A stretch of 64,000 nt of DNA from Candidatus Zixiibacteriota bacterium (GTDB lineage: Bacteria > Zixibacteria > MSB-5A5 > RBG-16-43-9), in assembly GCA_030692925.1 (NCBI GenBank), contig JAUYBY010000028.1, positions 4,351 through 68,350 of the forward strand, given 5' to 3'. The notes below the pieces were generated by a model. That model made no database searches. It was not told the DNA's origin and was given only the letters and a program-made list of their open reading frames with translations. The translations under genes were made by a program, and so were the position numbers. Every line of letters starts with the position of its first letter. The first letter of the stretch is position 1. Shown piece after piece: positions 36,318-39,234 of the stretch.

Positions 36318-36995
36318 TCATCCAAACGTCCGGCTCTCTGGCCAGGGATGGCACACGTCGTAGGTCCCAATTACGGTTTCACCCGCTCTGACCTGTTGAT
36401 TTAGTTTTACTAAAACTTTAACCTTTTCCGGAAGAAAAAGCTCAGCCCTGGAGCCGAACTTTATCATCCCGAACCTCTCTCCGATTTTAACCTGGTCTCC
36501 TTCTTTTATTCGGCAGACAATCCTGCGGGCAATAGTCCCTGCAATCTGTTTCAGGATAAGTTTAACCTGGCTATTTTCCAGCCCCAGCTCGTTTTGTTCA
36601 TTTTCAGAGGAGGCTTTTTCTTTATAAGCCGCATTGAAACTGCCGGGAATATATTTGGCATACTTGACCACCCCGCTTATCGGATTTCTGTTTATATGCA
36701 CGTCCCACAAAGACAAAAAAATCGAAACCTTGGTGCCGCCTGAATTTAAAAAACCATTCTCAGAAAAAGGTGCAATCTCTACAATTCTTCCATCAGCCGG
36801 AGAAAGGATTATCCCTTCTCCCTGAGTAATCTCTCTGTCCGGGTCACGGAAGAAGAAAACGATGAAGAGGGTAATCACCAGAAAAAGAACCGTAAATCCT
36901 GAAACTATTTTGCTTCTGGTCAAAACCGAAAGCAGGAAAAATATGATGGTCAAAATCAAGCTGAAAAATATGATGCCTAAACCTTCTTTAGCCAT
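36318..36995 (-). CDS. psd: phosphatidylserine decarboxylase family proenzyme
   Basis: Located downstream of pssA. FGMIKFGSRAE (GS self-cleavage site) and an N-terminal TM. The 3' end may run into the repeat region. Confidence 0.65.
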   Translation of the reverse strand: MAKEGLGIIFFSLILTIIFFLLSVLTRSKIVSGFTVLFLVITLFIVFFFRDPDREITQGEGIILSPADGRIVEIAPFSENGFLNSGGTKVSIFLSLWDVHINRNPISGVVKYAKYIPGSFNAAYKEKASSENEQNELGLENSQVKLILKQIAGTIARRIVCRIKEGDQVKIGERFGMIKFGSRAELFLPEKVKVLVKLNQQVRAGETVIGTYDVCHPWPESRTFG

Positions 36996-37065
36996 TTATC
37001 TTCTTACCTAATAAACAAGAGGTGTACAAATCCCGATCCGTGATGACAATTTATAACCTCTTACT

Positions 37066-37108
37066 TTTTCCTCTTAAACACCCTCTTGAAAATATAATCC
37101 ACATTTCA
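37066..37108. repeat. direct repeat (left copy) flanking the HEPN/MNT cassette, a degenerate copy of the purB 3' end
   Basis: ttttcctcttaaacaccctcttgaaaatataatccacatttca versus 37895-37937 (about 38 of 41 nt identical). Confidence 0.7.
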
Positions 37109-37492
37109 TAGCGTTTTCGCTTCAATCATCTTAATAAGTCTTTTAATCTGAATCAAAGAGTCTTTTATCTCTGACTTGGTATATTCCACCTCATAGCCCA
37201 TGGGATAACGGCTTTCAAAATAAAAATTGGTAACCTTTTCCACTATCTCTTTAAATTGCTCAAAATCAGGATCAATTCTAATCGCATCACTGAGCAGTTT
37301 TACCAAGTCATGAATCATTTCTAGCTTTTTACCTTTAGCTATAAGAAACCCTTTTAGATATTTCTCCGCCGCTTGTTGAATATGAAAGGAGATTGTCTCT
37401 AAAGCTCGATTATGTTTAAATAGGAACTCAGCATCCTTTAGGTCTTTGTTGCCTTTGCTGAACCATTCTTTGACTATCTCCGATTTATCCAT
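37106..37492 (-). CDS. HEPN-domain protein (HepT-like toxin)
   Basis: QQAAEKYLKGFLIAKG...HDLVKL HEPN helices. It overlaps the MNT gene by 8 nt. Confidence 0.7.
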   Translation of the reverse strand: MDKSEIVKEWFSKGNKDLKDAEFLFKHNRALETISFHIQQAAEKYLKGFLIAKGKKLEMIHDLVKLLSDAIRIDPDFEQFKEIVEKVTNFYFESRYPMGYEVEYTKSEIKDSLIQIKRLIKMIEAKTL

Positions 37493-37814
37493 AGAGTACC
37501 ACTCCTTCCGTCATGATCTTCTTAATAAAATCATCTCCAAGTTTTATCCTGTGCTTAGTTTCATCCGGTGTATACACAATCGGATCCATCGGAACCACTG
37601 CATTCTCCTCTCTGAGTATCCGTCTCACCCGCACTGAGCGATCAATGTGGCGCTCTTTTGTCTTCTTAATGATAAAGAAATCAAGATCACTATGTTTATT
37701 CGGTCTGCCCCAGGCATAAGAGCCGAAAAGGATTATCTTCTCGGGCTGGTATTCTTTTTGTATTTTTTCCGAAATCCTTTGAATTATCTTTTTTATCTTC
37801 TTGTGATTTCTCAT
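37485..37814 (-). CDS. nucleotidyltransferase (MntA-like antitoxin)
   Basis: LFGSYAWGRPNKHSDLDFFII NTase signature. Confidence 0.8.
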   Translation of the reverse strand: MRNHKKIKKIIQRISEKIQKEYQPEKIILFGSYAWGRPNKHSDLDFFIIKKTKERHIDRSVRVRRILREENAVVPMDPIVYTPDETKHRIKLGDDFIKKIMTEGVVLYG

Positions 37815-37890
37815 AACTTCTTACCTTTGCTAGTTACTCTCTGAGCTTTTTGAACTTATCACAATCTGTGATTAGTTCTTACTTTATCTA

Positions 37891-39234
37891 TTATTTTTTC
37901 TTAAACACCCTCTTAAAAATATAATCCACATTTTTCAGGAAATATTTCAAATCAAAGCAGTCTAAGATTTCCTCATTGCTCAGATATTTTTTGATCCTTT
38001 GGTCTTTAAGGACTAATTCTTTAAAACTCTCACCAGTTTCCCAAGCTCTGGTGGCATTTTCCTGCACGTAGGCATAAGCTTCCTCCCTGGTATGTGTCTT
38101 TTTGGTCAATTTAGTCAAGACCCTTTGTGAGAAAACCAGACCCTTGGTCAGGTCGATATTTTTCAGCATATTTTTTGGATAAACTGTCAGATTTTTCATA
38201 ATCCTGGTAAAATTAACCAGCATATAATCTACCAGACTGGTGGAATCAGGCAGGATGACCCTTTCCACTGCGGAATTAGTTATATCTCTCTCATGCCACA
38301 GGTTCATATTTTCGAGAGCAGCCAAAGCATCTCCTCTTACCAACCTTGACATCCCGGTCAATCTCTCGCACATAAACGGGTTCCTTTTATGCGGCATTGC
38401 AGAGGAGCCTTTTTGCCCTTTTACAAATCCTTCCTCCAATTCTAAGACCTCTGTCCGCTGAAGATTTCTTATCTCTGTGGCGAACTTCTCGATTGCTCCG
38501 GCGATTATTGCCATACAGGTTACAAACTCTGCGTGTCTGTCCCTCTGCAAAATCTGGGTGGAAACAGAAGCCGGTGCAAGACCTGCTTTTTTGCATACGT
38601 ATTCTTCTACCTTAGGACTGATATGGGCGAAATTGCCCACCGCACCTGAGATTTTGCCAACTGAAACAGTCTTTATCGCCTTTTTTAATCTCTCGATATC
38701 TCTTTCGATCTCAGAATACCATAAGGCGAATTTGAAACCAAGGCTGATCGGCTCAGCCTGAACCCCGTGGGTCCTGCCGATCATAGGAGTCATTTTGTAC
38801 TGAAAAGCCCTCCTCTTAATAACCTTGTTCAACTCCTCTAAATCCTTGAGGATGATATTCCCGGCATCTCTTAATATCATAGAAAGGGCAGTATCCACCA
38901 CGTCATAAGAGGTCATCCCCAGGTGAACGTATTTCGAATCCTCACCGATATACTCAGCCAAATTGTTCAGAAAGGCGACCACATCATGATGAACTTTGTT
39001 TTCGATCTGGTTGATCTTCTTCACATTGAAGTTGGCTTTCTTTCTTATGCGCGGGACAGCGCTCTTAGGGATATTTCCCAATTTTGCCTGCGCTTCACAG
39101 GCTAATATCTCTACCTCGATCCACTTTCTAAACTTGTTCTCGTCTGACCACAGCTCCTGCATCTTTGGCAAGGTGTATCTTGCTATCATAGCTTGATCCT
39201 TTCTAAATTCCTCTCGTTGCCATGGGAATGGCAA
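37891..39234 (-). CDS. purB: adenylosuccinate lyase
   Basis: Fumarase/ASL family GSSAMPHKRNP signature and PurB length. The C-terminus ...VDYIFKRVFKKK is encoded by the right-hand copy of the direct repeat. Confidence 0.85.
   Translation of the reverse strand: MPFPWQREEFRKDQAMIARYTLPKMQELWSDENKFRKWIEVEILACEAQAKLGNIPKSAVPRIRKKANFNVKKINQIENKVHHDVVAFLNNLAEYIGEDSKYVHLGMTSYDVVDTALSMILRDAGNIILKDLEELNKVIKRRAFQYKMTPMIGRTHGVQAEPISLGFKFALWYSEIERDIERLKKAIKTVSVGKISGAVGNFAHISPKVEEYVCKKAGLAPASVSTQILQRDRHAEFVTCMAIIAGAIEKFATEIRNLQRTEVLELEEGFVKGQKGSSAMPHKRNPFMCERLTGMSRLVRGDALAALENMNLWHERDITNSAVERVILPDSTSLVDYMLVNFTRIMKNLTVYPKNMLKNIDLTKGLVFSQRVLTKLTKKTHTREEAYAYVQENATRAWETGESFKELVLKDQRIKKYLSNEEILDCFDLKYFLKNVDYIFKRVFKKK

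What the first reader, a model, noticed from the sequence alone, without database searches (positions are those of the whole stretch)
37066..37937. HEPN/MNT toxin-antitoxin cassette inserted at the 3' end of purB with a 40-bp target duplication
The 790-bp segment carrying the HEPN toxin (37106-37492) and MNT antitoxin (37485-37814) is bracketed by imperfect direct repeats (37066-37108 and 37895-37937). The right repeat encodes the last 13 codons of purB (...VDYIFKRVFKKK*). The left repeat is a decayed copy of the same purB 3' end. This is the signature of a site-specific insertion that regenerated the host gene's 3' end, as seen with integron-cassette or tRNA/3'-end-targeting elements. Here it is a minimal defence/addiction module with no integrase nearby.
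Basis: seen in the sequence. Interest (0 to 1): 0.72.

Follow-up and report, generated by a model that had tools for sequence, protein, structure and literature searches.

The report
purB-end duplication beside resident HEPN/MNT module
The repeat is a real leftover copy of the end of the purB gene next to a two-gene toxin-antitoxin-like module. Related genomes show it is a recombination scar in a variable defence-gene slot between two housekeeping genes, not the footprint of a self-inserting mini-element.

Summary
**Observation: confirmed.** A 45-nt direct repeat (34-nt core, 1 mismatch, none expected by chance) brackets an overlapping MNT–HEPN gene pair between purB and psd in a Zixibacteria genome. 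The right copy is purB's working 3' end. The left copy is a non-coding relic.

**Empty sites exist.** The closest named genome (Zixibacteria RBG_16_43_9) has purB directly followed by psd, with one copy of the sequence. Its purB–psd spacer is identical to what follows the relic here.

**The site-specific or integron-like reading is not supported:**
- The repeats have no attC-like fold.
- There is no integrase within ±11 kb, and no viral copy of the cassette or the repeat.
- Cassette relatives elsewhere have no flanking repeats.
- The same cassette at the same locus has three other downstream junctions in related lineages: no purB duplication, a ~160-nt purB fragment, and a decayed relic fused to MNT after HEPN loss.

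**The cassette is old at this locus.** Its divergence between lineages (79–84% nt) tracks purB's (80–81%). Alleles are recombination mosaics.

**The gap is a variable defence slot.** It has nine occupancy states, including type IIG R-M, type I R-M parts and PDC-S05.

**Best reading (0.58):** the repeat is a scar of illegitimate, microhomology-mediated joining of modules, later refreshed by homologous recombination. This is ordinary in kind and modestly interesting.

The parts
37891..39234 (-). purB (adenylosuccinate lyase). The ORF runs from a TTG at 39234. The likely start is the ATG at 39189, giving 432 aa as called in relatives.
   Evidence: Pfam Lyase_1 3.2e-62 and ADSL_C 9.3e-25. Orthologues of 432-435 aa in L001, L013 and L106.
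37889..37937 (-). Copy A, the right repeat: the functional 3' end of purB (...KNVDYIFKRVFKKK*).
37852..37878 (-). Near-perfect palindrome GAACTAATCACAGATTGTGATAAGTTC between purB and MNT. It is a candidate operator or terminator. It is positionally homologous to ATCACGGATCGGGAT in the native purB-psd spacer.
   Evidence: It is the only stable hairpin in the DNA fold. It is conserved in L001, L093, L101, L104 and L106. The motif starts 20 nt after the purB stop in the empty allele, copy B, L101 and L106, and 23 nt after it here. The operator function is an inference.
37485..37814 (-). MNT, a minimal nucleotidyltransferase of 109 aa with the motif GS-x11-DLD. It is the presumed antitoxin.
   Evidence: Pfam Polbeta 4.6e-10 and NTP_transf_2 9.6e-10. 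PADLOC PDC-S09 5e-11. Nearest solved structures are MntA-type proteins.
37106..37492 (-). HEPN-domain protein of 128 aa, PF05168 (HEPN-T) type. It is the presumed toxin. The canonical Rx4-6H histidine is replaced by tyrosine (RYPMGY).
   Evidence: Pfam HEPN 5.5e-24. Nearest PDB entry is 1UFB (TT1696), which has RYPDAH at that position. About 100 of 111 homologues have Tyr at the His position, and 94 of them read RYPxGY.
37062..37108 (-). Copy B, the left repeat: a displaced, non-coding relic of the purB 3' end that starts at the HEPN stop codon. It reads NVDYIFKRVFKRKK*.
   Evidence: Variants of this copy in L001, L092 and L093 differ only at sites that also vary among real purB ends.
36996..37061 (-). 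Native purB-psd intergenic spacer, with the hairpin AAGAGGT...ACCTCTT and the psd ribosome-binding site.
   Evidence: Identical over 64 nt to the spacer of the empty allele L011, and over 67 nt to L093. Hairpin seen.
36318..36995 (-). psd (phosphatidylserine decarboxylase), the downstream flank of the variable slot.
   Evidence: Pfam PS_Dcarbxylase 1.4e-45. It flanks the gap in every related locus.

Best explanation
The window comes from a candidate-division Zixibacteria genome. In this clade the short gap between the core genes purB and psd is a variable defence-gene slot.

The MNT-HEPN pair is a toxin-antitoxin-like module. MNT is a nucleotidyltransferase presumed to neutralise the HEPN protein, and HEPN is presumed to be an RNase-type toxin. 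The module is a long-term resident of this slot, not a self-mobile cassette.

The 45-nt direct repeat is a partial duplication of the purB 3' end. It lies at the boundary between the MNT-HEPN module and whatever follows it: the native spacer plus psd here, or a type IIG R-M gene in sister strains.

**Inferred history.**
- The duplication arose by a rare illegitimate, microhomology-mediated join. The HEPN stop codon, (A)TGA, was joined to a point inside the 3' part of a second purB-end-plus-downstream segment. This could have been one-sided homologous recombination (homology-facilitated illegitimate recombination) or a repair event.
- The relic has since been overwritten repeatedly by homologous recombination with real purB ends from other strains. 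That keeps it looking young.
- The occupied allele spreads, is swapped and is lost by ordinary homologous recombination in the flanking core genes.

**Shown:** the duplication, the empty sites, the allelic series, the mosaicism, and the absence of att/attC/integrase features.

**Inferred:** the illegitimate-join origin, the refreshing by recombination, and the toxin-antitoxin mechanism.
For: **1. Empty alleles with one copy.** L011, L012, L015, L016 and L058 have purB directly followed by psd. L011's spacer equals the sequence after copy B in the window.

**2. Nine occupancy states of the same gap**:
- empty;
- MNT-HEPN with no duplication (L101);
- MNT-HEPN plus the 45-nt relic (window, L009, L092, L093);
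- the same plus a type IIG R-M gene (L001-L008, L010);
- MNT-HEPN plus a ~160-nt purB fragment plus R-M (L104);
- MNT alone, fused to a decayed relic, plus R-M (L106-L109);
- R-M alone (L110-L112 intact, L013 split);
- type I methyltransferase plus PDC-S05 plus S subunit (L052);
- PDC-S05 plus an unknown ORF (L014).

**3. Variable duplication length.** The duplicated purB stretch is 0, 45 or ~160 nt. The short shared sequence at the junctions is only (A)TGA / GA.

**4. The cassette has co-diverged with its host.**

| Comparison (nt identity) | MNT | HEPN | purB |
|---|---|---|---|
| Window group vs L101 | 78-80% | 82-84% | 81% |
| Within the window group | 89-96% | 96-99% | ~90% |

**5. Mosaic alleles.** Mismatch maps of the window against L001, L092 and L093 show recombination breakpoints that differ from pair to pair and do not sit at the repeat edges.

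**6. Copy B variation matches real purB alleles.** In the first 11 codons, the copy B alleles differ at three sites. All three are third-codon positions and all are seen in real purB alleles. This fits import by recombination.

**7. No mobility features.** There is no hairpin in the repeats, no recombinase within ±11 kb, no Rfam family, and no viral copy.

**8. Published parallel.** Core-gene-flanked defence hotspots, many lacking any mobility gene and proposed to move by flanking homology, are described in PMC10250203.
Against: - All three purB-linked junction types (L101, the window group, L104) begin exactly at the HEPN stop codon. So does the yjbQ context in L094 and L102. That precision is not predicted by random illegitimate joins. 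It needs either selection within a very short spacer, or derivation of the 45-nt form from the ~160-nt form by a deletion between TGA repeats. Neither is shown.
- L104 is a single 1056-nt contig, and its left side is inferred from L106.
- The origin rests on one or two ancient events, so the mechanism cannot be read directly.
- An integrase encoded elsewhere in the genome cannot be excluded, because only 64 kb is available.
Confidence: 0.58

Rival explanations
1. A minimal mobile cassette, or the remnant of a larger integrative element, carried a purB-3'-like attachment site. A recombinase acting in trans integrated it site-specifically into the 3' end of purB, regenerating the gene end. This is the pattern of tRNA- or gene-3'-end-targeting islands and, loosely, of integron cassettes.
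For: - Occupied and empty sites differ by an insert bracketed by direct repeats that include the gene's 3' end.
- The cassette's right edge is exactly the HEPN stop codon in every context seen.
- The slot also accepts other cargo.
Against: - No recombinase within ±11 kb of the slot in the window.
- No attC-like or other structure in the repeats.
- The duplicated length is 0, 45 or ~160 nt in different lineages.
- Other cargo at the slot (R-M, type I parts, PDC-S05) has no second purB copy.
- Homologous cassettes elsewhere lack flanking repeats.
- No viral copy of the cassette or the repeat.
- Cassette divergence tracks host divergence, which indicates long residence.
Confidence: 0.12
2. One ancient, non-site-specific insertion created a long target duplication in a single step, for example by fill-in of a staggered break or by template switching. 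The duplication ran from about purB codon 394 to about 45 nt past the stop. The ~160-nt form (L104) is the ancestral state. The 45-nt form (window), the fused relic (L106) and the no-duplication form (L101) are successive deletions.
For: - The native-spacer motif ATCAC.GAT.G.GAT..GT is found after both copy A and copy B. This suggests the duplicated unit extended past the stop codon.
- A deletion between the HEPN stop (TGA) and a GA/TGA just before AATGTGG would keep the stop exactly. This would explain why all junctions start at TGA.
- The 5' part of L104's fragment shows relaxed, non-synonymous decay.
Against: - The spacer remnant after copy A is only about 55-75% like the native spacer, whereas the one after copy B is 100% identical to an empty allele. 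The two copies are therefore not the same apparent age unless copy B was later replaced.
- The predicted deletion products differ by 2 nt from the observed junction for two of the three purB allele types.
- L104 is a single short contig.
Confidence: 0.25
3. The repeat is an assembly or strain-mixing artefact of a metagenome-assembled genome.
For: The source is evidently a MAG-type sequence. Strain mixtures are present in the same samples: several alleles come from one study.
Against: The same junctions are seen on 18 contigs from JGI, ENA and Logan assemblies, including long ones of 144 kb and 196 kb. Sequence variants in the two copies are consistent across assemblies.
Confidence: 0.02

Closest known systems
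Core-gene-flanked defence hotspots (cDHS1/2 of Pseudomonas aeruginosa, PMC10250203; E. coli defence-island hotspots, PMC10121019)
   Same: The flanking core genes are constant (purB and psd). The cargo is highly variable and dominated by defence or conflict genes: type IIG R-M, type I R-M parts, PDC-S05 and MNT/HEPN. Some alleles are empty and no mobility gene is present. There is evidence for exchange by homologous recombination in the flanks. PMC10250203 reports that 29-47% of sites have no mobile gene and proposes transfer via the conserved flanks.
   Different: This slot is tiny: 0 to 4 kb and 0 to 3 genes, against a median of 26 kb. It lies inside what looks like a co-oriented housekeeping gene string and is not next to a tRNA or tmRNA gene. 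It belongs to an uncultured phylum. It also carries visible partial duplications of the flanking gene as junction scars.
HEPN/MNT (HepT/MntA) type VII toxin-antitoxin systems (Shewanella SO_3166/3165, PMC4621449; Aphanizomenon and Shewanella AMPylation work, PMC7641770; Legionella, PMC11586414)
   Same: It is a two-gene module with MNT first and the two ORFs overlapping. The nucleotidyltransferase has an intact GS...DxD motif and is followed by a small all-helical HEPN protein. PF05168-type HEPN genes are noted to cluster with R-M operons (PMC3710099), as seen in L001 and L102.
   Different: The HEPN protein is the PF05168 (HEPN-T) type, not the DUF86/HepT type that was studied experimentally. 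The Rx4-6H histidine is replaced by a conserved tyrosine (RYPxGY). Toxicity, RNase activity and AMPylation are all untested for this subfamily.
Integrative elements that regenerate the 3' end of their target gene (for example e14 and phage 21 in E. coli icd, and tRNA-gene islands); recalled from general knowledge, not checked here
   Same: An insert sits at the 3' end of a gene, the element-proximal copy completes the gene, a displaced native 3' fragment lies at the other end, and empty sites have one copy.
   Different: There is no integrase. The element is only two genes. The duplication length varies between lineages. Other cargo at the same slot has no duplication. The cassette has co-diverged with its host.
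Homology-facilitated illegitimate recombination (one homologous anchor plus a microhomology join, described for naturally transformable bacteria; cited in PMC8116780 and PMC6382021; details recalled from general knowledge)
   Same: The junction lies close to a homologous anchor gene. The microhomology is 2-4 nt, (A)TGA. The join positions are variable. A mirror-image case exists at yjbQ in L102, where a 72-nt 5' pseudo-fragment lies next to an inserted small ORF.
   Different: This process is usually reported with deletions of recipient DNA rather than duplications. Competence and transformation are unknown for Zixibacteria. The exact coincidence of the joins with the HEPN stop codon is not explained.

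Membership tests
HEPN/MNT toxin-antitoxin module | Adjacent, co-oriented and usually overlapping genes for a minimal nucleotidyltransferase and a HEPN-domain protein | tested here: met
   MNT at 37485-37814 and HEPN at 37106-37492 overlap by 8 nt. Both Pfam hits are above the curated cut-offs.
HEPN/MNT toxin-antitoxin module | Nucleotidyltransferase catalytic motif G[GS]-x9-13-D-x-[DE] in MNT | tested here: met
   FGSYAWGRPNKHSDLDFF is read directly from the translation. It is conserved in P0112 and P0113.
HEPN/MNT toxin-antitoxin module | Rx4-6H RNase motif in the HEPN protein | tested here: not met
   The sequence is RYPMGY. About 100 of 111 homologues have Tyr at the His position (94 read RYPxGY) and only 1 has His. 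TT1696 (1UFB) has RYPDAH at the aligned position. PMC3710099 notes His replacements in the PF05168 family, with a conserved His elsewhere. Here IHDL is conserved.
HEPN/MNT toxin-antitoxin module | HEPN is toxic and is neutralised by the cognate MNT, by AMPylation or by binding | not testable with these tools
   This needs expression and toxicity assays and mass spectrometry.
Integron gene cassette | attC site: an imperfect inverted repeat that folds as single-stranded DNA, with an R' GTTRRRY core at the cassette boundary | tested here: not met
   The repeats are unpaired in the minimum-energy and centroid folds on both strands. Z-scores are -0.6 to -2.4 and are driven by neighbouring hairpins. 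No GTTRRRY is present at the junctions.
Integron gene cassette | An IntI integrase and an attI platform nearby | tested here: not met
   The neighbours are RNase R, EcfT/CbiQ, TruA, Tal, PurB, Psd, PssA, PurS and PurQ. Further out are a GGDEF protein, a GH3 hydrolase, AnmK, SpoIID and a sigma-54 activator.
Site-specific integrative element targeting a gene 3' end | A recombinase (tyrosine or serine integrase) encoded in or next to the insert | tested here: not met
   None within ±11 kb in the window, and none within ±6 kb of the slot in the related loci annotated. The rest of the genome was not available.
Site-specific integrative element targeting a gene 3' end | attL/attR direct repeats of constant extent in all occupied sites | tested here: not met
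   0 nt in L101, 45 nt in the window group, ~160 nt in L104, and a fused relic in L106.
Site-specific integrative element targeting a gene 3' end | Empty sites carry a single copy of the repeat | tested here: met
   L011, L012, L015, L016 and L058.
Site-specific integrative element targeting a gene 3' end | The element is seen elsewhere, with an attP, or as a circle or on another replicon | tested here: not met
   No relative of the cassette and no copy of the repeat in IMG/VR. Relatives in other chromosomal contexts have no flanking repeats. Circular forms cannot be tested without reads.
Core-gene-flanked defence hotspot | The same conserved flanking genes with variable cargo enriched in defence genes, including empty alleles | tested here: met
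   Nine states between purB and psd. PADLOC assigns type IIG REase-MTase, type I MTase plus S subunit, PDC-S05 and PDC-S09.
Homology-facilitated illegitimate recombination scar | A junction at short microhomology close to a homologous anchor | tested here: inconclusive
   The (A)TGA / GA overlaps at the window-type and L104 junctions are only 2-4 nt. That is compatible with the model but weak.

The most novel reading that the evidence does not exclude
Small conflict-gene cassettes in these uncultured lineages are inserted by an undescribed, recombinase-independent or trans-acting process. The process uses a precise cassette end, exactly the HEPN stop codon, and duplicates tens to more than 100 nt of the adjacent host gene so that the gene end is regenerated. 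Three separate gene-end partial duplications would then be footprints of one mechanism rather than unrelated accidents. They are purB 45 nt, purB ~160 nt, and yjbQ 72 nt in L102.
Probability: 0.1. Interest if true: 0.7.

Novelty: new member of a known kind. Interest (0 to 1): 0.33.

Why it matters
This is a clean, small example of how defence and toxin-antitoxin genes are stacked, swapped and eroded in a slot between two housekeeping genes, with no mobility genes, in an uncultured phylum (Zixibacteria).

The partial purB duplications are rare visible scars of the joins that built the slot. They give a handle on how such integrase-free hotspots are assembled, which PMC10250203 leaves as an open question.

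There is also a practical point for genome scanning. A direct repeat that regenerates a gene end is not enough to call a site-specific element. The allelic series in relatives is what decides.

The tyrosine-for-histidine HEPN subfamily is a minor lead for toxin-antitoxin biochemistry.

Tried and rejected
- **attC-like or other secondary structure in the repeats: rejected.** DNA folds of both strands of both copies leave the repeats unpaired.
- **Dispersed genomic repeat: rejected.** Only two copies in 64 kb. In the first 10 related loci it occurs only at purB ends or right after HEPN.
- **Known RNA element in the spacer or repeats: none found.** Rfam gave only sub-threshold chance hits inside HEPN.
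- **Phage or mobile-element origin: nothing found.** IMG/VR scans with the HEPN protein and with the repeat found nothing.
- **Duplication extending to the psd ribosome-binding site: rejected.** AGGTAAGAAG occurs exactly twice in the window, once before psd and once before MNT. However, cassette relatives in unrelated contexts carry the same AAGTTATG-type site (L095, L102, L106). It therefore belongs to the cassette.
- **Copy A (TTT Phe codon) as foreign versus copy B (TTC) as native: abandoned.** L092 has the two variants the other way round.
- **HEPN read-through into copy B: rejected.** Copy B is in frame with HEPN in the window group, but the L104 fragment is out of frame and L001's relic is frameshifted.
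- **Promoter inside the repeat: not supported.** There is only a 9/12 sigma-70-like match (TTGAAA-18-GATTAT) at copy A, no better than in shuffles, and copy B lacks its -35 element.
- **Left side of the L104 allele: not recovered.** Its MNT exists only on that one 1056-nt contig.
- **Search limits.** A collection-wide search for extra purB-3' copies was therefore not possible.
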